Shown piece by piece: positions 30,016 through 38,299 of a stretch of DNA of 64,000 nt. Where the stretch lies: positions 97,888 through 161,887 of the forward strand of contig CAVQSR010000004.1 in the NCBI GenBank assembly GCA_963716055.1, written 5' to 3'. The translations under genes were made by a program, and so were the position numbers. The stretch's first letter is position 1, and each line of letters opens with the position of its first letter. The stretch comes from an uncultured Gemmatimonadales bacterium (GTDB lineage Bacteria; Gemmatimonadota; Gemmatimonadetes; Gemmatimonadales; GWC2-71-9). The notes under the pieces were generated by a model, which worked only from the letters and a program-made list of their open reading frames with translations, made no database searches and had not been told where the DNA came from.

Positions 30016-30354
30016 CTAGACCTGGAGCCCCGCGAGCGCGTCGGCCTCCGTGGCGAACACGGCGAAGATCGCGGAGAACCCGGAGATCTGGAACACCTCC
30101 CCCACCGACTCGTTCAGCCCGAACAGGCGCAGCGCGCTCCCCGCCCCGCTCAGCCGCTTCGCCGTGCCCAGCAGGACGCGGAGGCCGGCGCTGCTGATGT
30201 AGTCGAGCGCCGTGAAGTCGATCAGCAGCTTCCGGCCGCCGCCCGTGAGGATCCCGTCCAGCGCCTGCTGCGCCTGCGGCGACGTCTTGCTGTCGAGACT
30301 CCCCCGGAAGGCGACGATGGTCACGTCGTGCTGCGCGCGGGTGACGATCTCCAT
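30016..30354 (-). CDS. STAS-domain anti-sigma factor antagonist (RsbV/SpoIIAA-like)
   Basis: LLIDFTALDYISSAGLRVLL with the conserved phosphorylatable Ser. Confidence 0.92.
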   Translation of the reverse strand: MEIVTRAQHDVTIVAFRGSLDSKTSPQAQQALDGILTGGGRKLLIDFTALDYISSAGLRVLLGTAKRLSGAGSALRLFGLNESVGEVFQISGFSAIFAVFATEADALAGLQV

Positions 30355-30379
30355 GAACTTCCTCCGTGATGATCTGCCC

Positions 30380-30916
30380 TCATCCGGGCGTCAGGCGCTT
30401 CGCCAGGACGAGGACGTTGCGATCCGCCCGGCGGTCATAGGTGACCTCGTCCATGATGTGCCGGACCAGGTGGATGCCAAGCCCGCCGATCCGCCGCTCC
30501 TGGGTGGTGAGCGTGGTGTCGGGGGCGGGCATCTCGAGCGGATCGAACGGCCGGCCGTCGTCGGTGAGGGTGACGCACACCCGGTCCGTATCCAGCACCA
30601 CCTCGACCGTCACCTCCCCGCCTTCCCGGCCGGCGAATCCGTGCATGATGCTATTGCTCAACATCTCGTCGAGGGCGATGTGCAGGCTCCGCCGGACGGA
30701 CCCGGACAACGCGTGCGTGTCCGCGAACTCGGAGAACGCCGCGGTGACCCCGGCAATCTCGCTGCGATCGGCACCGATCGTCATGCGGAAGCCTGGCCGC
30801 ATCCTGTCCTCCGGCACGCCCCTGTCCGACTCCGCCACGGCCATAATATGGTCGGCCGGCCCGCCGTCGGCGCGGGGGCCGTCCCGGGCGGCGGCGGCCC
30901 CCCCCTCCGCCGGCAT
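30380..30916 (-). CDS. Anti-sigma / Ser kinase (RsbW-like, HATPase_c_2)
   Basis: IALDEMLSNSIMHG, DDGRPFDP, RIGGLGIHLV; start uncertain. Confidence 0.88.
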   Translation of the reverse strand: MPAEGGAAAARDGPRADGGPADHIMAVAESDRGVPEDRMRPGFRMTIGADRSEIAGVTAAFSEFADTHALSGSVRRSLHIALDEMLSNSIMHGFAGREGGEVTVEVVLDTDRVCVTLTDDGRPFDPLEMPAPDTTLTTQERRIGGLGIHLVRHIMDEVTYDRRADRNVLVLAKRLTPG

Positions 30917-30979
30917 TTGCCGGGGGGCACCACGGAGTGCACGTTACCCCTGACCAACCTTTGACGGTCTGGATTGTAA

Positions 30980-31531
30980 TTGAAAGAGACACCCACGGCG
31001 GTAGACGCACAGGACCGCGCGCTCGTCCGGCGGTACCTGGCAGGTCAACGGGACGCGGCCACCGGTCTCGTCGATCGCTACCAGCAGCGCCTGTTCAACG
31101 TCGCGCTGCGCATGCTCGGCAACGTGCAGGACGCCGAGGACGTCACCCAGACGGTGTTCCTGAACGCGTTCCTCAAGCTCCGGACCTACGACCCGAGCTA
31201 CCGGTTCTTCAGTTGGATCTATCGCATGACGGTCAACGAGTCGCTGAACACGCTGAAGCGCCGGAAGCACACCGTGATGCTGGACGACGAGCCTCGCATC
31301 CCGGCGCCGGGCGCCGAGCCCGGTGGCGCGACGGAGGCGCAGGACCGGGTCGGGAGGGCGCTGATGGGACTGAAGCCCGACGACCGGGCCGTCGTGGTGC
31401 TCAAACACTTCGTGTCCTTCTCCTACGAGGAGATCGCTGACGTGCTGGAGATCCCCGTGAAGACCGTCAAGTCGCGCCTGTTCACGGCGCGGGAACGGCT
31501 GCGACACACGCTGCGCGAGTCAGCGAGGTAA
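30980..31531 (+). CDS. ECF sigma-70 family RNA polymerase sigma factor
   Basis: DAEDVTQTVFLNA, FFSWIYRMTVN, SYEEIADVLEIPVKTVKSRL. Confidence 0.93.
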   Translation: MKETPTAVDAQDRALVRRYLAGQRDAATGLVDRYQQRLFNVALRMLGNVQDAEDVTQTVFLNAFLKLRTYDPSYRFFSWIYRMTVNESLNTLKRRKHTVMLDDEPRIPAPGAEPGGATEAQDRVGRALMGLKPDDRAVVVLKHFVSFSYEEIADVLEIPVKTVKSRLFTARERLRHTLRESAR

Positions 31532-31533
31532 CC

Positions 31534-32868
31534 ATGCTGAAGCAGGAACAGATCGAGCTGATCCATCGGGAGATCGACGGCGCGAACACGCCGGACGAGA
31601 GCGCCGCCTTCCGGTCCCTGCTGGAGCGGGATGCCGAGGCCAGGGCGCTCGCGGCGGACCTGCGCCAGGTCGCCCTGCTCTTCGACCATGTGGGAGCGCG
31701 CGAACCGCCCCCGCATCTGAAACAGGCCATCCTCGAGGCGTTGCCAGAGCCGGCCCCGGCGCCCTCGAGGACCGAATGGGGATGGATGTCCCCGCGTGCG
31801 ATCCTGCGATGGTCCGTGCACCAACTGAAACTCGGCGCCGAACACATGGAGGAGGCGATTATGACCAAGAAGACGATGCTCATCGGAGGCACGGTGGTGG
31901 CGATCGGGATCGTCATTGCCGGCATCGTGACGGGCTTCCCACCCACGGGTGGTGAAGCCGGCACGATCGGCGGGGTCGAGAAGGCGTCGCGGTATCAGGG
32001 GCGGGCCATGACCGAAGCCGACGTGACCATCAAGAACCCCGAGATCGCGGTGCTGCTCCAGAACCCGGAGGTCCTGCGCCTGGTGCAGAGCGACGAGTTC
32101 CGCCAAGTGATGAAGAACAAGGCATTCCAGGCACTGCAGGCCAACGAGGCGTGGCAGGCGCTGCAGGCCAACCAGGCGTTCCAGGCGCTCCAGGCCAGCG
32201 AGGCGTTCCAGGCGCTCCAGGCCAACCAGGCGTTCCAGGCGCTCCAGGCCAACCAGGCGTTCCAGGCGCTCCAGGCCAACCAGGCGTTCCAGGCGCTCCA
32301 GGCCAACGAGGCGTGGCAGGCGCTCCAGGCCAACCAGGCATTCCAGGCGCTCCAGGCCAGCGACGCGTGGCAGGCGCTGAGCGCGAGCGAGGCATTCCAG
32401 GCGCTGCAGGGCCAGGCAAACCAGGCGCTGCAGGCCAACCAGGCGTTCCAGGCGCTCCAGGCCAGCGACGCGTGGCAGGCGCTGCAGGACAACCAGGCGT
32501 TCCAGGCGCTCCAGGCCAGCGACGCGTGGCAGGCGCTGCACGCGAACCAGGCGTTCCAGGCGCTCCAGGCCAACCAAGCGTTCCAGGCGCTGCAGGCCAA
32601 CCAGGCGTTCCAGGCGCTCCAGGCCAGCGACGCGTGGCAGGCGCTGCAGGCCAACCAGGCGTTCCAGGCGCTGCAGGCCAACCAGGCATTCCAGGCGCTG
32701 CAGGCCAACCAGGCGTTCCAGGCGCTGCAGGCCAACCAGGCATTCCAGGCGCTGCAGGCCAACCAGGCATTTCAGGCGCTGCAGGCCAACCAGGCATTCC
32801 AGGCCCTCTCGCAAAGCGAGCGGCTGTCCGGATTGTTCATGAGGGAGGCCGAGCAAGTCGCCCGCTGA
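31534..32868 (+). CDS. Putative transmembrane anti-sigma factor with a C-terminal tandem nonapeptide repeat
   Basis: Starts 2 nt after the ECF stop; helical cytoplasmic N-domain, one TM (LIGGTVVAIGIVIAGIV), then the repeat. Confidence 0.75.
   Translation: MLKQEQIELIHREIDGANTPDESAAFRSLLERDAEARALAADLRQVALLFDHVGAREPPPHLKQAILEALPEPAPAPSRTEWGWMSPRAILRWSVHQLKLGAEHMEEAIMTKKTMLIGGTVVAIGIVIAGIVTGFPPTGGEAGTIGGVEKASRYQGRAMTEADVTIKNPEIAVLLQNPEVLRLVQSDEFRQVMKNKAFQALQANEAWQALQANQAFQALQASEAFQALQANQAFQALQANQAFQALQANQAFQALQANEAWQALQANQAFQALQASDAWQALSASEAFQALQGQANQALQANQAFQALQASDAWQALQDNQAFQALQASDAWQALHANQAFQALQANQAFQALQANQAFQALQASDAWQALQANQAFQALQANQAFQALQANQAFQALQANQAFQALQANQAFQALQANQAFQALSQSERLSGLFMREAEQVAR
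32122..32820 (+). repeat. 27-bp coding tandem repeat, 26 units of A(F/W)QALQA(N/S)(Q/E/D)
   Basis: 699 nt = 25 nine-residue units plus one eight-residue unit, counted from the translation. Confidence 0.97.
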
Positions 32869-32994
32869 CGTGACGCGGCGGATGCGCCGGCCCCGCCAAA
32901 TTGGGCTGGTGCAGTGCGGTGATCCCGGCTCGTGCTGACGCGAGCCGGGATCGCCGCTTACATTATCCCGCGCCGTGCCGACCACGAGCTGACA

Positions 32995-35982
32995 ATGCAT
33001 CGCATCCGATTCACGACGAGCGCCCGCCGCCGCACCGCGGCGGTCCTCGCCGCTCTCTTGTGCGTGGTGACGCTCGCGCCGTGCGGTCTCGCCGGGCAGT
33101 TCCAGACGCTCGAGACCGGCAACCTGCGGCTGGTCTTTACCTCTCCGGTTCAGTCCTACCTGGTGCCCCAGGTGGCCTTGAGCTTCGAGAACTCGCTGCG
33201 GTTCCACCGCGATCTCTTCCAGTACACGCCACCCGGCAAGATCAACGTGCTGATGCACGACCTGTGGCATTACGGCAACGCCGGGGCCCGCGCGATGCCG
33301 GAGAACCATATCGAGGTCGGGATCGCTCCGTTCCAGCACGTCTACGAGTCGGCGCCGGGTCCCGAACGAATGGTCTTTCTGCTCAACCACGAGGTGGCCC
33401 ATGTCGTCGTGGTCGACAAGACCACCTCGGCCGACCGGCTCTTCCGGTCGGCCTTCTTCGGCAAGGTCAGACCCAACGCCGAAGTACCGCTGTCCATGCT
33501 GTACAGCTACCTGACCACGCCGCGGTGGTATTCGCCCCGGTGGTACCACGAGGGGATCGCCGTCTATCTCGAAACGTGGATGGATGGAGGTCTGGGACGC
33601 GTCATCGGGCCCTACGACGAAATGGTGTTTCGGACGCTCGTGCGCGACAGCGCCACCATCTACGACGTGGTCGGACTGGAATCGGAAGGGACGACGATCG
33701 ACTTCCAGACGGGGGTGAACTCCTACCTCTACGGAACGCGCTTCGTCAGCTACCTGGCGCTGCGCTACGGGAACGACAGCCTGTTGGCGTGGTTCAACCG
33801 GACGCCCGGCAGCCGACGGTACTTCTCGTCGCAGTTCCGGCACGTTTATGGCCGGTCCCTCCAGGACGAGTGGTCGCGCTGGATCGCGTGGGAGCGTGAG
33901 TGGCAGGAAGCCAACCTCGCGGCGATCAGACGGCATCCGGTCACGGTGTCCCGCCCGCTCACCGATCGGGCGCTGGGATCGATCTCGCGGGCGTACTATG
34001 ACGCGACGAGTCGGAACATCTACGTGGCCCTTCGGTATCCGGGGCAGGTGGCCCACATCGCCGCCATCGACGTCGCGTCCGGGCAGATCACGAAGATCAG
34101 GGAGGTGCTGGGAGCCTCGGGCTTCTACGTGACCGCCCTGGCGTTCGATGCGGCGTCGAAGACCCTGTTCTATACGAGCAACAACGCCGACTGGCGTCAC
34201 CTCGTCCGGCTGGATCTCGCGACCGGCCGGACCACGGTCCTGCAGCGGAACGCGCGGGTCGGCGATCTCGTCTTCAACCCGGCGGACCGCTCGCTCTGGG
34301 GAGTTCGGCACGACAACGGACTCTCGACGCTGGTCCGCATTCCCTCTCCCTATCGCGAGTGGCAGCAGATCCGGACCCTGCCGTACGGGCGGGACCTGTT
34401 CGACCTGGACATCTCGCCGGATGGAGCGACCCTGATCGGATCCATGTCGGAGATCAGCGGGAAGCAGCGCCTGGTGCGGATGGACCTGGCGGCGCTCGTG
34501 CAGGGGGACACCACGCACGAGGTCCTGGCCGACTTCGACGAATGGGCGCCGTCGAACTTCGTGTTCTCTCCCGACGGGCGGTACCTGTTCGGTTCGTCCT
34601 ACTACTCGGGGGTCTCCAACATCTTCCGCTATGACGTCGCCACGGGCAGCACGGATGCCCTGAGCAACGCGGAAACGGGACTCTTCAAGCCGGTCCCGAT
34701 CTCGGAAGACTCGATCGTCGTCTTCCGGTTTACCGGCCGGGGATTCGTGCCCTCGATGATCCCGAACCAGGTGCCCGACAGCGTGAGCGCGATCCGCTTC
34801 CTGGGGAACGAGATCGCCGAGCAACGGGCCGAGGTGCAGTCGTGGATGGTGTCGCCCGCCTCGAGCATCGACCTCGACTCCCTCACGACCTCCACGGGCG
34901 CCTACCGCTCGCTGAGCCACTTCAAGCTGGACAACGTGTTTCCCGTGGTGGAGGGGTACGAGGATGCGGCCGGCCACGCCGCCGTGGCCGGAGGCGTGCG
35001 CGTCAACTTCTCCGATCGGATCGGCACGACGGCGCTCGATCTGACCGCGTCATACTCTCCCGACCGGCGCCTGTCGTCGTTCGAACGGCTGCACCTGGGC
35101 GCGGACTTCCACCACTGGAACTGGCGGGTCTCCGCGGCCCTGAATCGCGCCGACTTCTACGACCTCTTCGGACCCACGAAGGCGAGTCGCCGCGGGTACT
35201 CGCTGGCGCTGCAATATCAGGACAATCTCGTCTTCGATGGACCGCGAAGGCTCGGATACACCCTGCAACTGGCGGGATACGGCGAGCTGGAGACGGTGCC
35301 GGAGTATCAGGCGGTGGCGGCGTCGTTCGACAAGCTCCTGTCGTTCTCGAGCAACCTCGAGTATCGGTCGCTGCGGAGCTCGCTGGGAGCCATCGAGGAT
35401 GAGCTGGGGACGACGTGGGGAGTGACGTTGCGGGGCAACTACGTCAATGGGTCGCTCTATCCCCGCCTGAGCGTGGATGCGTCCCAAGGGGTTCTCCTGC
35501 CGTTGAACCACTCGTCGCTGTGGTTCCGCGCCTCGGCGGGAGCGGCGCTGGCCGGGGACCGGAACGAGCCCTTCGCCAACTTCTTCTTCGGCGGGTTCGG
35601 CAACAACTGGGTGGATTACCGGGCCATGCGGCAGTTCCGGCACACCGAGAGCTTCCCGGGCATCGCGATCAACGACGTCGGCGGTGCCAACTACGGCAAG
35701 GCCCAGATCGAGTGGACGCTGCCGCCGCTGCGGTTTCGTCGCGCCGGAATCCCGAGCTTCTATCTCCGGTGGGCCGGCCTGTCGTTCTTCGCGACGGGAC
35801 TCGCGACCAACGTCGATGAGCCGGCGGTCCGCCGCACGATCGGCAGCGTGGGCGCGCAGCTCGACATCCGCCTGGTCACGCTGTCGCATCTCAACTCCAC
35901 CCTGTCGGTCGGCTTCGGCGCGGCCGGACAGCGGGGTGCTCGGGGCACCAGCGGCTGGATGTTCTCGTTCAAGATCCTGTGA
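32995..35982 (+). CDS. Large outer-membrane protein: gluzincin-like metallopeptidase + beta-propeller + beta-barrel-like C-terminus
   Basis: Signal peptide; HEVAH (33388-33402) plus downstream WYHEGIA; repeated (F/I)SPDG PD40/TolB-like motifs; amphipathic strands ending FSFKIL. Confidence 0.72.
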   Translation: MHRIRFTTSARRRTAAVLAALLCVVTLAPCGLAGQFQTLETGNLRLVFTSPVQSYLVPQVALSFENSLRFHRDLFQYTPPGKINVLMHDLWHYGNAGARAMPENHIEVGIAPFQHVYESAPGPERMVFLLNHEVAHVVVVDKTTSADRLFRSAFFGKVRPNAEVPLSMLYSYLTTPRWYSPRWYHEGIAVYLETWMDGGLGRVIGPYDEMVFRTLVRDSATIYDVVGLESEGTTIDFQTGVNSYLYGTRFVSYLALRYGNDSLLAWFNRTPGSRRYFSSQFRHVYGRSLQDEWSRWIAWEREWQEANLAAIRRHPVTVSRPLTDRALGSISRAYYDATSRNIYVALRYPGQVAHIAAIDVASGQITKIREVLGASGFYVTALAFDAASKTLFYTSNNADWRHLVRLDLATGRTTVLQRNARVGDLVFNPADRSLWGVRHDNGLSTLVRIPSPYREWQQIRTLPYGRDLFDLDISPDGATLIGSMSEISGKQRLVRMDLAALVQGDTTHEVLADFDEWAPSNFVFSPDGRYLFGSSYYSGVSNIFRYDVATGSTDALSNAETGLFKPVPISEDSIVVFRFTGRGFVPSMIPNQVPDSVSAIRFLGNEIAEQRAEVQSWMVSPASSIDLDSLTTSTGAYRSLSHFKLDNVFPVVEGYEDAAGHAAVAGGVRVNFSDRIGTTALDLTASYSPDRRLSSFERLHLGADFHHWNWRVSAALNRADFYDLFGPTKASRRGYSLALQYQDNLVFDGPRRLGYTLQLAGYGELETVPEYQAVAASFDKLLSFSSNLEYRSLRSSLGAIEDELGTTWGVTLRGNYVNGSLYPRLSVDASQGVLLPLNHSSLWFRASAGAALAGDRNEPFANFFFGGFGNNWVDYRAMRQFRHTESFPGIAINDVGGANYGKAQIEWTLPPLRFRRAGIPSFYLRWAGLSFFATGLATNVDEPAVRRTIGSVGAQLDIRLVTLSHLNSTLSVGFGAAGQRGARGTSGWMFSFKIL

Positions 35983-36989
35983 CGGTCGTCCTCGCCGCTG
36001 CCGTCGGTGTCCTGCCGGTCTTTCTGTTTCTCGGAGCGCTCGTCGTCATCGACAGCTACAAGCTCGTCACGCTGCGGGCCGTGCTGCTGTCGGTGGCCGC
36101 CGGCGCGCTCGCCGCCGGCGCGAGCTACGGGGTGAACGTCGCCCTCCGGCCGGCCCTCGGCCTGGACTTCAGCCGCTACTCCTGGTACGTGGCCCCGGTC
36201 GTGGAGGAGACGCTCAAAGCCACCTTCGTCGTGTATCTGCTGCGGGGGAACAAGGTGGGGTTCGTCGTGGACGCCGCGATCCACGGCTTCGGTATCGGCA
36301 CCGGCTTCGCGGTGCTCGAGAACATCTACTACCTGTACGTGAGCCCTGACGCGACCCTCTGGACCTGGATCGTGCGGGGGCTGGGCACCGCGATCATGCA
36401 CGGGGGCGCGACGGCGATCATGGTCATGGTCTCCCGGACGCTCCTGAACCGGGTCGACGCCTTTCGCGTGTGGCTGCTGCTGCCGGGGCTCGGCGTGGCC
36501 GTGGTCCTGCACTCGCTGTACAACCACTTCCTGCTGCATCCGCTCCTGGCGACGGGGCTCATCGTGCTGGTCATCCCGTACCTCAGTGTGGCCGTGTTCC
36601 AGCGGAGTGAGCGCGACACGCAGACGTGGGTGGGCACGGGGTTCGACACCCATCTCGAGCTGCTGCGGGTCGTGCGCTCGGGCCAGGTCTCGCGCAGTCC
36701 GGTCGGGAAGTACCTCGCGACCCTGCGCAGCCGGTTCGCGCCGGAGGTGATCGTCGACATGATGTGCCTCCTGCGCCTGCGTGCCGAGTTGGCCATCCGC
36801 GCCAAGGCCGTGTTGCTGATGCGCGAGGCCGGGTTCGAGGCCCCGCCGGACCCGGCCCTGAAGGACACGTTCGAGGAGCTGCGCTACCTCGAGCGGAGCA
36901 TCGGGAAGACGGGGCTGCGTGCCGTGCATCCGTTCCTCGACACCAGCATGCGGGACCTCTGGCAGCTCAACATGCTGAGCGAGCTCTGA
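35979..36989 (+). CDS. prsW: PrsW-family intramembrane metalloprotease with a C-terminal soluble extension
   Basis: PVVEETLKA, GFAVLEN and LHSLYN motifs; GTGA overlap with the upstream stop. Confidence 0.88.
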   Translation: MTVVLAAAVGVLPVFLFLGALVVIDSYKLVTLRAVLLSVAAGALAAGASYGVNVALRPALGLDFSRYSWYVAPVVEETLKATFVVYLLRGNKVGFVVDAAIHGFGIGTGFAVLENIYYLYVSPDATLWTWIVRGLGTAIMHGGATAIMVMVSRTLLNRVDAFRVWLLLPGLGVAVVLHSLYNHFLLHPLLATGLIVLVIPYLSVAVFQRSERDTQTWVGTGFDTHLELLRVVRSGQVSRSPVGKYLATLRSRFAPEVIVDMMCLLRLRAELAIRAKAVLLMREAGFEAPPDPALKDTFEELRYLERSIGKTGLRAVHPFLDTSMRDLWQLNMLSEL

Positions 36990-37021: not shown

Positions 37022-38299
37022 TTGACCGGCCACCACCGCCACCCACGATCGAGCGTGACGACTCCACCACCTCAGGGAACGACAGCGCCGCCGCCCGGCG
37101 GCCCACGGGCGCGCGTGCTGGTGGTCGCCCACGCGGCCGCCGATCGCGACGCCCTCGGTGGTCACGTGGGGGCGGACGGGCACGCCGTGGACGCAGTCGG
37201 CGAGGGTGGCGCGGCGTTCGCGAAGCTCCGGGCCGAGCCGTTCGACCTGGTGCTGCTGGACGCGCACCTGCCAGGGATGGACGGCCCGCGGTTCCTGCAG
37301 GCCCTGCGGAACGATGCCGACCTCGCCCACGTCCCGGTCATCGTGGTGTCGGGGGGGGACGACATCGATGCCCTCGCGCAATGCCTCGAGGCGGGCGCCG
37401 ACGACTATCTCCCCAGGGAGTTCCGGCCGGTCATGCTGCGGCTCCGGCTCCGCGCGGCGCTCGACCGCAGCCGCCTGCGCGACGCCGAGAACCTCACGCG
37501 CGAGATGGCCGTCGCGCGGAACATCCAGCGGGACTTCCTTCCCGAATCGCTTCCCGTCGCCCGGGGGTGGCAGCTCGAGGCGGCGCTGCATCCGGCCCTC
37601 GACGTCTCCGGCGATTTCTACGACGCGTTCGTGCTGGCGCCATCCGGCACGATCGTCCTGGTCGTGGGAGACGTGTGCGACAAGGGGTTCGGCGCCGCGC
37701 TGTTCATGGCGCTGTTCCGCAGCCTCATCCGCGCCTCCGCCGATCCCGTCGAGGGGGGGGCGATCCAGATGATCGGCGGCCGTCGCACCCTCGTGCGCCA
37801 GGCCCTGGACGCCGCCACGCCGGCCGACCTGCTGACCCGGGTCGCCGGCTTCACCAATGACTACATCGCTCGGCTGCACGGGCGCACCAACATGTTCGCC
37901 ACGGTCTTCCTCGCGGCGCTCAGTCCGATGAGCGGGCAGTTCGATTATGTCAACGCGGGTCACGTGCCGGCGCTGGTGATCGGTCCGGACGGCCCCACGC
38001 AGGAGTTGCACCCGACGGGCCCCGTGCTCGGGGTCCTCCCGGACCAGGTGTTTCAGGCGGGCGAGGGGACGCTCGAGCGCGGGCAGTCCATCTTCGCGTT
38101 CACCGATGGGCTGGTGGAGGCGCGGAGCCCGGCCGGCGAGGCCTTCGGTGCGGAGCGATTGCGGGACGCCCTGCAGGCGAGCCACACCTCGGCCGTCGAT
38201 CTCGTCCGGGGTGTCATGGACAGGGTCACGGCGTTCACCGGATCGGCCGAACCCCACGATGACGTGACGCTGGTCGCGGCGACGCGCACGATGGGGTGA
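37022..38299 (+). CDS. REC-PP2C (SpoIIE/RsbU-like) phosphatase
   Basis: REC motif LLDAHLPGMDG; PP2C motifs VSGDFYD, VVGDVCDKG, NAGH, FTDGL and DDVT. Confidence 0.92.
   Translation: MTGHHRHPRSSVTTPPPQGTTAPPPGGPRARVLVVAHAAADRDALGGHVGADGHAVDAVGEGGAAFAKLRAEPFDLVLLDAHLPGMDGPRFLQALRNDADLAHVPVIVVSGGDDIDALAQCLEAGADDYLPREFRPVMLRLRLRAALDRSRLRDAENLTREMAVARNIQRDFLPESLPVARGWQLEAALHPALDVSGDFYDAFVLAPSGTIVLVVGDVCDKGFGAALFMALFRSLIRASADPVEGGAIQMIGGRRTLVRQALDAATPADLLTRVAGFTNDYIARLHGRTNMFATVFLAALSPMSGQFDYVNAGHVPALVIGPDGPTQELHPTGPVLGVLPDQVFQAGEGTLERGQSIFAFTDGLVEARSPAGEAFGAERLRDALQASHTSAVDLVRGVMDRVTAFTGSAEPHDDVTLVAATRTMG

What the first reader, a model, noticed from the sequence alone, without database searches (positions are those of the whole stretch)
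32122..32820. 26 x 9-residue AFQALQANQ repeat as the extracytoplasmic domain of the putative anti-sigma
Seen: a nearly charge-free Q/A/N-rich nonapeptide array with F/W and L at fixed positions, in which W units tend to follow an acidic residue (E/D-AW). It is preceded by NPEIAVLLQ-NPEVLRLVQ-SDEFRQVMK, which has the same 9-residue register. Inference: short N-capped helices (STI1/DP-like solenoid), a periplasmic ruler whose length varies by repeat slippage, or a Q/N-rich self-assembling (amyloid-like) sensor.
Basis: partly seen in the sequence, partly recalled or inferred. Interest (0 to 1): 0.66.

Follow-up and report, generated by a model that had tools for sequence, protein, structure and literature searches.

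The report
Two-armed mini-helix repeat on anti-sigma factor
The outer half of this membrane-bound anti-sigma factor is a real array of 26 nine-residue mini-helices laid out as two equal arms around one odd unit; it belongs to an unnamed repeat family that always sits beside a PrsW protease and a large outer-membrane-like protein, so it is probably the sensing or gating part of an unstudied envelope signalling system.

Summary
Residues 195-428 of the 444-aa ORF 31534..32868 (+) are 26 tandem units, 25 of nine residues and one of eight. Fifteen read NQAFQALQA.

The protein is an ECF anti-sigma factor. It has an RsiW-like N-terminal fold, one transmembrane helix, and starts 3 nt after an ECF sigma gene.

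The array is not a private oddity. About 150 relatives, mostly Gemmatimonadales and a few from other phyla, carry the same membrane-proximal motif, N-cap and in-phase 9-mers, with 8 to 36 units.

- **Unit structure:** position 1 is a helix N-cap residue in 86% of units and position 2 is sometimes Pro. AlphaFold2 gives one 7-8-residue helix per unit.
- **Array layout:** an odd unit lies at the exact centre in 87 of 101 relatives (chance about 29). Here the split is 14|1|14, which suggests a fold-back hairpin.
- **Gene context:** the gene always precedes a ~1000-aa HExxH/propeller/Omp85-like protein and a PrsW protease.
- **Closest resemblance:** STI1/DP, but below threshold.

The Q-rich, charge-free composition and the E/D-W rule are specific to this lineage. 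The amyloid reading is not supported.

The parts
30954..30978 (+). Promoter-like motif CCAAC-N15-TTGTA upstream of the ECF sigma gene
   Evidence: It is conserved upstream of the ECF gene in all related loci, including those from other phyla. It is the only exact match in the 3.59-Mb genome. A TAA at 30977-30979 shows it is not coding.
30980..31531 (+). ECF sigma factor, 183 aa
   Evidence: Matches Sigma70_r2 (8.6e-16) and Sigma70_r4_2 (8.4e-15). The best NCBIfam matches are SigW models, below their cut-offs.
31534..31740 (+). Cytoplasmic anti-sigma domain (res 1-69), four helices, no Cys (non-zinc)
   Evidence: AF2 pLDDT is mostly above 89 (it dips to about 57-67 over res 51-70). Foldseek matches RsiW 5wuq_C (TM 0.68), RslA 3hug and MucA 6in7. 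NCBIfam 'antisigma' NF052375 scores 9e-7, below its cut-off.
31876..31938 (+). Single transmembrane helix (res 115-135, MLIGGTVVAIGIVIAGIVTGF), preceded by TKK
   Evidence: Read from the sequence. K113, G118, A123, G134 and P136 are nearly invariant in the family alignment.
31960..32034 (+). Conserved membrane-proximal motif GTIGGVEKASRYQGRAMTEADVTIK (res 143-167)
   Evidence: This is the most conserved extracytoplasmic segment. G, T, G, G, V, A, Y and D are invariant across phyla. It is present whether or not the protein carries an anti-sigma domain.
32035..32115 (+). N-cap: three degenerate 9-mers, NPEIAVLLQ NPEVLRLVQ SDEFRQVMK (res 168-194)
   Evidence: They are in register with the array. 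N, P, L, Q, N and F are invariant. This is the site of the sub-threshold STI1-HOP_DP and UBQLN1 matches.
32116..32412 (+). N-arm: units 1-11 (res 195-293). With the 3 cap units the arm has 14 units.
32413..32436 (+). Central odd unit QANQALQA (res 294-301): 8 residues, no aromatic, preceded by Gly293
   Evidence: AF2 shows a coil at 294-297 and a pLDDT dip to 70. In the domain-only model the pLDDT minimum (49-54) lies just downstream, at domain residues 161-180 (full-length 300-319).
32437..32817 (+). C-arm: units 13-26 (res 302-428), 14 units
32818..32868 (+). C-cap SERLSGLFMREAEQVAR and the stop codon
   Evidence: The family consensus is ..AFRSLSxSxxLSxAFMxEAMRxxQ.
32932..35982 (+). 1016-aa partner protein: signal peptide, HExxH (HEVAH), beta-propeller, possible Omp85-like C-terminus
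   Evidence: It lies immediately downstream of the repeat gene in every locus where enough downstream sequence is present, at 45-76% identity. Pfam matches are weak: Peptidase_MA_2 and SGL, PD40 and Omp85_2 in orthologues. It has no PDB relative.
35979..36989 (+). PrsW-family membrane protease, overlapping the previous gene by 4 nt
   Evidence: PF13367, 7.4e-19, 68.5 bits, above the cut-off. Syntenic wherever the contig reaches that far.
37022..38299 (+). Response-regulator receiver + PP2C (SpoIIE) phosphatase
   Evidence: PF00072 and PF07228. Syntenic.
30016..30916 (-). Divergent RsbW-like kinase (30380-30916) and STAS anti-anti-sigma (30016-30354)
   Evidence: HATPase_c_2 3e-25 and STAS 1.9e-19. 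Syntenic.

Best explanation
The array is the periplasmic ectodomain of a single-pass, non-zinc class I anti-sigma factor. This factor holds the ECF sigma encoded just upstream.

**Unit.** Each nine-residue unit is an N-capped, two-turn amphipathic helix. Position 1 (N/S) is the cap. A3, F/W4, L7 and Q8 form the apolar face.

**Array.** The 29 in-register units (3 cap units plus 26) form two equal arms of 14 around one odd 8-residue unit. The chain therefore most likely folds back as a hairpin of stacked mini-helices. This would return the conserved C-terminal cap to the conserved membrane-proximal segment (GTIGGV..RY..DV.I.NPE).

**Inferred mechanism.**
1. The folded hairpin shields the membrane-proximal segment from the operon-encoded PrsW site-1 protease.
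2. An envelope signal opens or degrades the hairpin. It is probably delivered by the always-adjacent 1016-aa HExxH/propeller/Omp85-like protein acting on the distal tip or arms.
3. PrsW cuts, and then an M50 site-2 protease cuts.
4. The released sigma transcribes its own operon from CCAAC-N15-TTGTA.

**Shown:** the array, its register, the family, the cap residues, the equal arms, the synteny, and the single promoter-like site.

**Inferred:** arm-to-arm contact, shielding, which protease cuts where, and the nature of the signal.
For: **Architecture**
- ASD fold matches RsiW, RslA and MucA.
- The gene starts 3 nt after an ECF sigma gene.
- There is one TM helix with KK on the N-terminal side.

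**Family**
- 96 protein hits, about 89 with the same layout.
- 62 genomic loci, about 57 from Gemmatimonadales and a few from other phyla.

**Strict phase**
- Aromatic spacings are almost only 9, 18 or 27.
- The N-cap to C-cap distance is 7 mod 9 in 58 of 78 proteins, and 6 mod 9 in 17, including this one.

**Mini-helices**
- Position 1 is N/S/T/D in 86% of 929 units, A3 in 77%, F/Y/W4 in 86%, and L/V/I/M7 in 81%.
- Some arrays have Pro at position 2 in nearly every unit: L080 NPNFQSVLA and L071 NPAYRELSA.
- AF2 gives one 7-8-residue helix per unit, broken at position 1. pLDDT is 85-95 over the repeats in the full-length run and 72 on average for the domain alone.

**Equal arms**
- An odd or non-aromatic unit lies within one unit of the exact centre in 87 of 101 proteins. 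Chance expectation is 28.8 +/- 4.4, with a maximum of 44 in 2000 shuffles.
- This holds for 42 of 56 distinct patterns, at array lengths from 12 to 36.
- The window is 14|1|14. My own hand counts from the sequences give L081 12|hinge|12 and L080 13|1|~13.

**Module**
- STAS, RsbW | ECF, repeat protein, ~1000 aa, PrsW, REC-PP2C are syntenic in all loci, and PrsW scores above its Pfam cut-off.
- The repeat gene precedes the ~1000-aa gene even when it lacks an anti-sigma domain or carries a zinc-ribbon N-terminus.
- The genome holds four M50 loci.
- The promoter-like site is unique in the genome.
Against: - No coordinates or PAE were available, so arm-to-arm contact is not seen in any model. pTM is only 0.51-0.58.
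- 14 of 56 distinct patterns are not centred, and 20 of 121 proteins have no odd unit. Some of these may be collapsed assemblies; for example P0013 has 14 units against 33 in L023 with an identical N-terminus.
- A Bacteroidota orthologue has unrelated 8-mers and a Calditrichia one has 10-mers. The precise unit therefore may matter less than repetitiveness.
- The C-cap is not conserved outside Gemmatimonadales.
- No experiment exists for any member, and nothing shows that PrsW cleaves this protein.
- Family proteins are phylogenetically related, so the shuffle statistics overstate independence.
Confidence: 0.55

Rival explanations
1. The array is an STI1-like client-binding module. The stacked amphipathic mini-helices would form a long apolar groove, Met-rich in most relatives. 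The groove would bind unfolded outer-membrane proteins, lipoprotein or other hydrophobic peptides in the periplasm, and ligand binding would be the signal. This can coexist with the hairpin model.
For: - STI1-HOP_DP and UBQLN1 are the recurrent top Pfam matches for four family sequences, best 1.2e-5 at 25.6 bits.
- The Hop DP2 region appears in the PDB profile search at E = 2.1.
- Position 8 is Met in 32% of family units.
- STI1 domains are helical hands that bind hydrophobic helices (PMC8010706, PMC13083928).
Against: - All these matches are below the gathering threshold.
- They cover mostly the N-cap NPE..LLQN motif, although the best match for one of the four sequences tested lies in the repeat units.
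- The window's own array has no Met and has Gln at position 8.
- Orthologues with 8-mers of polar composition exist.
Confidence: 0.15
2. The array is a straight solenoid rod that acts as a periplasmic spacer or ruler. It would reach from the inner membrane to the outer-membrane partner without folding back, and its length would be tuned by repeat slippage.
For: - Unit number varies from 8 to 36 among species.
- The 27-bp units are up to 100% identical, with 80-nt exact repeats, which makes them good slippage substrates.
- Close relatives differ by 1 to 19 units.
Against: - A rod gives no reason for the odd unit to sit at the exact centre over lengths 12-36.
- A more than four-fold length range argues against a fixed distance being measured.
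- In-frame slippage in one arm would break the observed symmetry.
Confidence: 0.13
3. Each arm is one continuous long alpha-helix, forming an antiparallel coiled-coil hairpin or an oligomeric bundle. AlphaFold's one-residue breaks would be artefacts.
For: - The composition (A, L, Q) is strongly helix-forming.
- Equal arms also fit a two-helix hairpin.
- In the domain-only model the predicted breaks are only one residue long; in the full-length model most are two residues.
Against: - Nine residues equal 2.5 turns, so F4/L7 would alternate between opposite faces. No heptad, hendecad or other coiled-coil period fits (my geometry, from the established 100 degrees per residue).
- N-cap residues occupy every position 1.
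- Pro at position 2 in every unit of some arrays is incompatible with a continuous helix.
Confidence: 0.07
4. The Q/N-rich array is a self-assembling (amyloid-like or condensate-forming) sensor, or it is simply disordered.
For: Q + N make up 38% of the array and charged residues only 4%. STI1 regions of ubiquilins drive phase separation (PMC13083955).
Against: - The Q-rich, charge-free state is a lineage extreme. The family median charge is 0.22 and typical units are xDAFRELMA.
- AF2 pLDDT is 85-95 with helical units in the full-length model.
- There are no Gly/Pro/Tyr-rich features of prion-type repeats.
- Strict phase and conserved caps indicate a fold.
Confidence: 0.05
5. The count of 26 units is an assembly artefact (collapse or expansion).
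For: - The array contains 80-nt exact repeats.
- Short-read relatives break or possibly collapse in the array. G110 contigs end inside it, and P0013 has 14 units against 33 in L023.
Against: - The genome is in 9 contigs and this contig is 515 kb.
- Units carry many distinguishing synonymous variants.
- The array obeys the family's symmetry rule exactly (14|1|14), which a one-sided collapse or expansion would break.
- Arrays of equal or greater length occur in large-contig assemblies of relatives (L023 481 aa, L030 36 units).
Confidence: 0.05

Closest known systems
Bacillus subtilis sigmaW / RsiW / PrsW / RasP regulated intramembrane proteolysis
   Same: - An ECF sigma whose best NCBIfam matches are SigW models.
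- A single-pass anti-sigma whose N-terminal fold matches RsiW 5wuq.
- A PrsW-family protease and M50 site-2 protease candidates.
   Different: - There is no zinc-binding HxxxCxxC motif.
- The ectodomain is a 9-residue repeat array instead of RsiW's non-repetitive domain.
- PrsW is in the same operon.
- The host is diderm, with an extra ~1000-aa HExxH/propeller/Omp85-like partner and an RsbW/STAS/REC-PP2C partner switch.
- Cleavage by PrsW is untested.
STI1/HOP DP domains and ubiquilin/Sgt2 STI1 'helical hand' (Pfam PF17830, PF23195)
   Same: - Short helices start with N/D-P.
- The motif NPE[IV]xxLLQNP in the N-cap resembles the DP motif.
- The apolar faces are rich in L/M/F/Q.
- These are the recurrent best Pfam matches, and Hop appears in the PDB profile search.
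   Different: - Scores are below the gathering cut-off (25.6 at best against 29.1).
- STI1 domains have 5-6 helices of unequal length and are cytosolic eukaryotic chaperone modules.
- Here there are 8-36 strictly phased 9-mers, in the periplasm, and two-armed.
E. coli RseA / RseB / DegS / RseP envelope-stress cascade
   Same: In both, the periplasmic domain of a single-pass anti-sigma gates site-1 cleavage, followed by an M50 site-2 protease. Both respond to outer-membrane status.
   Different: - The site-1 protease type differs (PrsW rather than DegS).
- There is no RseB homologue.
- The ectodomain is unrelated.
- The signal is unknown.
FecR-type trans-envelope anti-sigma factors
   Same: An inner-membrane anti-sigma whose periplasmic part is genetically coupled to an outer-membrane protein.
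   Different: The partner is not a TonB-dependent transducer. There is no FecR domain, and the contact is not demonstrated.
Other short-period solenoids (pentapeptide, hexapeptide LbH, RTX nonapeptide beta-roll)
   Same: Strictly phased short tandem units, with capped ends and variable unit number.
   Different: Those are beta-structures with Gly or Asp signatures. This one is predicted all-helical, and the ectodomain model has no Foldseek match in the PDB.

Membership tests
Class I anti-sigma factor (ASD-containing, RsiW/RslA/ChrR type) | N-terminal four-helix anti-sigma domain fold | tested here: met
   AF2 gives helices 4-14, 20-32, 34-52 and 60-69 at pLDDT mostly above 89, falling to about 57-67 over res 51-70. 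Foldseek matches 5wuq_C RsiW (TM 0.68, prob 1.00), 3hug RslA and 6in7 MucA.
Class I anti-sigma factor (ASD-containing, RsiW/RslA/ChrR type) | Encoded next to, and co-transcribed with, its ECF sigma | tested here: met
   The start lies 3 nt after the stop of the ECF gene. This adjacency is kept in about 57 Gemmatimonadales loci.
Zinc-binding anti-sigma (ZAS) subfamily | HxxxCxxC zinc motif in the ASD | tested here: not met
   There is no cysteine anywhere in residues 1-110 (sequence).
PrsW-dependent RIP substrate (RsiW-like) | Site-1 cleavage of the ectodomain by PrsW | not testable with these tools
   Only genetic linkage is shown. PrsW (PF13367, 68.5 bits) lies two genes downstream wherever the contig reaches that far.
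STI1/HOP DP domain (PF17830) | Score above the Pfam gathering threshold (29.1 bits) | tested here: not met
   The window sequence scores 13.1 bits (E 0.092). The best family member scores 25.6 bits (E 1.2e-5). The PDB profile search finds Hop 7kw7_E at E = 2.1.
Plasmodium histidine-rich protein (PF05403) | His-rich AHH-type repeats | tested here: not met
   The Pfam score of 63.4 is above the 45.8 cut-off, but the array has a single His. The match comes from Ala-rich periodic composition and is a false positive.
Coiled coil | Heptad, hendecad or other period giving about 3.5-3.67 residues per turn with one apolar seam | tested here: not met
   The period is strictly 9. N-cap residues or Pro occur at each unit start.
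Prion-like Q/N-rich repeat (Sup35-type nonapeptides) | Q/N-rich, low-charge, disordered repeats with G/Y/P | tested here: inconclusive
   Q + N is 38% and charge 4%. However, there is no G/Y/P, the array is predicted helical, and the trait is absent from most of the family.
Unnamed 9-residue mini-helix repeat family (this report) | TM helix + GTIGGV..A.RY..D[VI].L.NPE[IV]..L[LF]QN cap + in-phase 9-mers x-x-A-[FYW]-x-x-[LVIM]-x-[AS], immediately upstream of the ~1000-aa HExxH protein | tested here: met
Unnamed 9-residue mini-helix repeat family (this report) | Two equal arms around a central odd unit | tested here: met
   The window is 14|1|14. The family figure is 87 of 101 centred, against 28.8 expected.

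The most novel reading that the evidence does not exclude
The nonapeptide array represents a protein architecture with no solved analogue. It would be a length-adjustable hairpin built from N-capped two-turn mini-helices whose two arms must stay equal in unit number. It would be the gate or sensor of a multi-phylum trans-envelope proteolytic circuit consisting of the repeat protein, an Omp85-like HExxH/propeller protein and PrsW, in which the ECF sigma appears to control only its own operon.
Probability: 0.35. Interest if true: 0.82.

Novelty: new variant of a known kind. Interest (0 to 1): 0.62.

Why it matters
How PrsW-type site-1 proteases are kept off their anti-sigma substrates, and what they sense, is still open even in Bacillus.

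This system offers a diderm version in which the substrate's ectodomain has an unusually readable design:
- strictly phased units;
- conserved caps;
- a central hinge;
- equal arms.

These features make direct predictions that deletion series can test. Symmetric deletions should be tolerated where one-arm deletions are not.

The repeat family has no Pfam or NCBIfam model, and its ectodomain model has no fold match in the PDB. My searches found no literature on it. It is nevertheless present in dozens of soil Gemmatimonadales species and in some other phyla, always with the same two envelope proteins.

If the mini-helix hairpin is real, it would add a new class to the catalogue of solenoid and repeat folds. 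It would also be a natural scaffold of tunable length.

Tried and rejected
- **Reads check.** Repeat number in reads and strains could not be checked, and read laying was not used.
- **Same-species contigs.** Exact 27-30-nt flank patterns found nothing in metagenome contigs. The closest protein in 5.8 billion clusters is only 60-66% identical.
- **Exhaustive phmmer with the ectodomain.** It returned 922 hits. The non-family ones I inspected are collagen-like GxQ or other low-complexity repeats. They reflect composition, not homology.
- **Foldseek.** The full model matched only the ASD. The ectodomain model matched nothing.
- **The conserved mid-array pair 'QGAFRxxQS-xEAMRxLQ'.** A regex search found it in only about 20 of 121 proteins. 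It became informative only when generalised to 'any odd unit'.
- **An 18-residue (5-turn) parity rule.** Rejected, because both parities are equally common, 29 against 29.
- **The E/D-W coupling as a structural rule.** Rejected.
- **The minus-strand 1184-aa ORF (31423..34977) and the +2-frame collagen-like ORF (32151..32873).** Both are by-products of high GC content and the repeat. Only the +1 frame is conserved as protein in relatives.
- **Source names on two relatives.** 'Phage head maturation protease' and 'lactoylglutathione lyase' have no support.
- **Model coordinates.** The tool returns no coordinates or PAE, so superhelix geometry and arm contacts could not be measured.
Full report
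**1. The observation**

Tandem Repeats Finder reports a 27-bp period from 32116 to 32804, with 25.6 copies, 85% matches and score 921. The array lies in ORF 31534..32868 (+), 444 aa.

Cut in register, residues 195-428 are 26 units. Twenty-five have nine residues. Unit 12, QANQALQA (res 294-301), has eight. Fifteen units read NQAFQALQA. They are encoded by six different 27-mers that differ only synonymously, which fits a protein-level constraint. Eight 27-mers are identical, and the longest exact direct repeat is 80 nt.

The three preceding units, NPEIAVLLQ / NPEVLRLVQ / SDEFRQVMK, are in the same register. Its coordinates describe the same array read two residues out of my register.

**2. The protein**

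The gene starts 3 nt after an ECF sigma gene (Sigma70_r2 and r4_2; the best NCBIfam matches are SigW models).

AlphaFold2 on an 89-sequence alignment models residues 4-69 as four helices at pLDDT mostly above 89. Foldseek matches that part to the anti-sigma domains of RsiW (5wuq_C, TM 0.68), RslA and MucA. The protein has no cysteine in that domain, so it is not a zinc-binding ZAS.

Residues 115-135 form the only hydrophobic helix and are preceded by TKK. The repeats are therefore outside the cytoplasm. The call 'extracytoplasmic domain of an anti-sigma factor' holds.

**3. A family, not a singleton**

A word-indexed search found 96 proteins, about 89 with the same layout. A scan of one genome per species found 62 loci. 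About 57 are from Gemmatimonadales or Gemmatimonadaceae MAGs. Single loci are labelled Acidobacteria, Calditrichaceae, Calditrichia and Bacteroidota. Eight of 121 sampled genomes of the window's own GTDB family have the gene, and the own genome has one copy.

All members share three features:
- a membrane-proximal motif, GTIGGV..A.RY......D[VI].L;
- the N-cap, NPE[IV]..L[LF]QN....L[VI].S..F;
- in Gemmatimonadales, a C-cap, AFRSLSxSxxLSxAFMxEAMR.

No Pfam or NCBIfam model covers the repeats. The Plasmodium_HRP hit (63.4 bits) is a compositional false positive, because the array has a single His. No paper in the library combines PrsW, ECF and Gemmatimonadetes.

**4. The unit is a capped mini-helix**

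Over 929 family units:

| Position | Residues | Share |
|---|---|---|
| 1 | N/S/T/D | 86% |
| 2 | D/E/A/Q | 83% |
| 3 | A | 77% |
| 4 | F/Y/W | 86% |
| 5 | R | 70% (Q here) |
| 7 | L/V/I/M | 81% |
| 8 | Q or M | 75% |
| 9 | A/S | 79% |

Positions 3, 4, 7 and 8 fall on one face of a two-turn helix, and positions 2, 5, 6 and 9 on the other. This is my geometry, using 100 degrees per residue. Position 1 carries the classical N-cap residues.

In several arrays Pro occupies position 2 of nearly every unit: NPNFQSVLA in L080 and NPAYRELSA in L071. A helix can start there but cannot run through it.

The phase is kept with almost no indels. Aromatic spacings are 9, 18 or 27. The N-cap to C-cap distance is 7 mod 9 in 58 of 78 proteins, and 6 mod 9 in 17, including this one.

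AlphaFold2 gives one 7-8-residue helix per unit with the break at position 1. It does so both for the full protein (pLDDT 85-95 over the repeats, pTM 0.58) and for the ectodomain alone (mean pLDDT 72, pTM 0.51). A continuous helix or coiled coil is unlikely, because nine residues are 2.5 turns and would place F4/L7 alternately on opposite faces.

**5. Two equal arms**

Many arrays contain one odd element. It is a unit without an aromatic, a unit with an indel, or the pair QGAFRxxQS-xEAMRxLQ.

I segmented 121 complete arrays with a dynamic-programming register finder. I then asked how close the nearest non-aromatic or odd-length unit lies to the exact centre. It is within one unit in 87 of the 101 proteins that have such a unit. 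Placing the same numbers of odd units at random gives 28.8 +/- 4.4, with a maximum of 44 in 2000 trials. Collapsed to distinct patterns, 42 of 56 are centred, at array lengths 12, 16-26, 28, 29, 33 and 36.

Individual cases:
- The window is 14|1|14. The N-arm is 3 cap units plus units 1-11, the centre is unit 12, and the C-arm is units 13-26.
- The longest arrays obey the rule too: L030 is 17|2|17 and L023 is 16|1|16.
- So do the stand-alone proteins of other phyla. My hand counts from the sequences give L081 12|hinge|12 and L080 13|1|~13.

The proteins are related, so these are not independent trials. Even so, centring at sixteen different lengths means the arms change length together.

The simplest reading is a hairpin. 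The chain goes out, turns at the odd unit, and returns, pairing unit for unit. The C-cap then ends beside the membrane-proximal motif. AlphaFold2 puts a coil at residues 294-297, with a pLDDT dip there in the full-length model. In the domain-only model the dip lies about 10-20 residues downstream. The tool gives no coordinates or PAE, so arm contact is inferred, not seen.

The arms also differ slightly in composition. Y at position 4 is 0.42 in the N-arm against 0.13 in the C-arm, and E at position 6 is 0.28 against 0.09.

The symmetry also serves as an internal check on the assembly, because a one-sided collapse would break 14|1|14. P0013 has 14 units and no hinge, while L023 has 33 units with a 100% identical N-terminus. 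This shows what such a loss looks like, whether it is real or an artefact.

**6. Context**

tblastn of the window's proteins against 70 related loci shows a fixed module:

STAS <- RsbW-like | ECF sigma -> repeat protein -> ~1000-aa protein -> PrsW (PF13367) -> REC-PP2C

The neighbours are 55-80% identical. The repeat part is only about 30-55% identical, and each lineage has its own homogenised unit, which indicates concerted evolution.

The ~1000-aa protein has a signal peptide, an HExxH motif, propeller-like repeats and a weak Omp85_2 match at its C-terminus. It has no PDB relative.

The repeat module is separable from the anti-sigma domain.
- In L030, G110/L052, L081 and L084, a separate ASD-TM-beta-domain anti-sigma precedes a stand-alone TM-plus-repeat protein.
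- L080 also encodes a stand-alone TM-plus-repeat protein, but no ECF sigma or anti-sigma gene was found upstream of it.
- In P0090/P0091 the N-terminus is a zinc ribbon.
- The ~1000-aa gene still follows in L030, L080, L081, L084 and P0090; the G110/L052 and P0091 contigs end before it.

The tightest partnership is therefore between the repeat protein and the ~1000-aa protein. A GT[IL]G motif follows the TM helix in both the stand-alone anti-sigmas and the repeat proteins.

A Calditrichia orthologue uses 10-mers. A Bacteroidota one uses unrelated polar 8-mers.

Upstream of the sigma gene, CCAAC-N15-TTGTA is conserved in all loci. It occurs only once in the 3.59-Mb genome, so the sigma may control little beyond its own operon. 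The genome has four M50 (site-2 protease) loci.

**7. How it most likely works**

Shown:
- a membrane-anchored periplasmic array of capped mini-helix units;
- two equal arms and conserved caps;
- fusion here to an RsiW-like anti-sigma domain;
- genetic linkage to PrsW and to a large envelope protein.

Inferred:
1. The folded hairpin brings the C-cap onto the conserved membrane-proximal segment and keeps PrsW off it.
2. An envelope signal opens or trims the hairpin. It is probably transmitted by the ~1000-aa HExxH/propeller protein at the distal tip or along the arms.
3. PrsW and then an M50 protease cut.
4. The released sigma induces its own operon.

I put about 0.85 on 'folded helical-repeat ectodomain of this module', about 0.6 on the hairpin, and about 0.35 on the shielding mechanism. 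The rivals are STI1-like client binding, a straight ruler, long coiled helices, a Q/N aggregate, and an assembly artefact. They are weighed in their own sections.

**8. Comparison with what is known**

The system works most like sigmaW/RsiW/PrsW/RasP. It differs in five ways:
- a non-zinc ASD;
- a repeat ectodomain;
- PrsW in the same operon;
- the extra outer-membrane-like partner;
- a partner-switch trio.

The unit and N-cap resemble the DP motif of STI1/HOP and ubiquilin STI1 regions. STI1-HOP_DP and UBQLN1 are the recurrent best Pfam matches (best 25.6 bits against a cut-off of 29.1), and Hop appears at E = 2.1 in a PDB profile search. That is a resemblance, not membership. The ectodomain model has no Foldseek match in the PDB.

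**9.

The E/D-A-W coupling is real in the window (6/6 against 2/19). It reflects copies of two founder units. It is absent elsewhere, where 0 of 27 W units follow an acidic residue.

The charge-free, Q-rich composition is the second most extreme of 137 arrays. It is a lineage trait, so the amyloid idea has no family support.

**10. Limits**

- No same-species contigs were found.
- No structure coordinates were available.
- No experiments exist for any family member.
- Earlier notes of this scan describe the same family in other genomes. I used them as leads and re-tested the synteny, the STI1 resemblance, the split architecture and the equal-arm claim on my own data.

Noticed in passing
window 30954-30978: The promoter-like motif CCAACCTTTGACGGTCTGGATTGTA (CCAAC-N15-TTGTA) ends 1 nt before the annotated TTG start of the ECF gene. 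It is conserved in all related loci, including other phyla, and is the only exact match in the genome. The transcript may be leaderless, or the true start codon may lie downstream (possibly the GTG at residue 15).
   Followed up: partly
L023:6001-7446 versus P0013: The two proteins have 100% identical N-terminal regions, but L023 has 33 units (hinge centred, 16|1|16) and P0013 has 14 units and no hinge. This is either an assembly collapse across near-identical units or a real strain-level deletion of 19 units.
   Followed up: partly
L083:6001-7170 and L084:6019-7083: The Bacteroidota orthologue keeps the ASD, TM helix and GTIGGV motif, but its array is made of unrelated polar 8-mers (KDANASLT, QKGEPITM, QKGEGNTI). 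The Calditrichia orthologue uses 10-residue units (LDNAxxRAAL). The period and composition of the repeat are therefore not fixed across phyla.
   Followed up: no
P0092-P0095; L081:5108-5890; L084:5179-5931: Stand-alone anti-sigmas of the same module (ASD + TM + beta-rich domain, no repeats) carry a GT[IL]-type motif a short distance after the TM helix, as the repeat proteins do. This could be a shared recognition or cleavage site for PrsW or for the ~1000-aa protein.
   Followed up: no
window 32932-35982: The 1016-aa protein (HEVAH motif, propeller-like middle, weak Omp85_2-like C-terminus ending ...FSFKIL) has no PDB relative and only sub-threshold Pfam matches. It is 45-76% identical across all loci and always follows the repeat gene. 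It is itself an uncharacterised conserved family.
   Followed up: partly
window 31423-34977 (-) and 32151-32873 (+, other frame): A 1184-aa minus-strand ORF and a collagen-like (GxP/GxQ) alternative-frame ORF run through the repeat. Both are by-products of high GC content and the 27-bp period. They could mislead gene callers, and the ectodomain query also draws collagen-like proteins in composition-driven searches.
   Followed up: yes
window 30016-30916 (-) and 37022-38299 (+): An RsbW-like kinase, a STAS protein and a REC-PP2C phosphatase flank the operon in every locus. This suggests a second, cytoplasmic partner-switching input on the same ECF sigma, or on another target.
   Followed up: no
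family arrays: The N-arm and C-arm units differ systematically. Tyr at position 4 and Glu at position 6 are enriched in the N-arm, and Phe and Ala in the C-arm. Each arm seems to be homogenised separately.
   Followed up: partly
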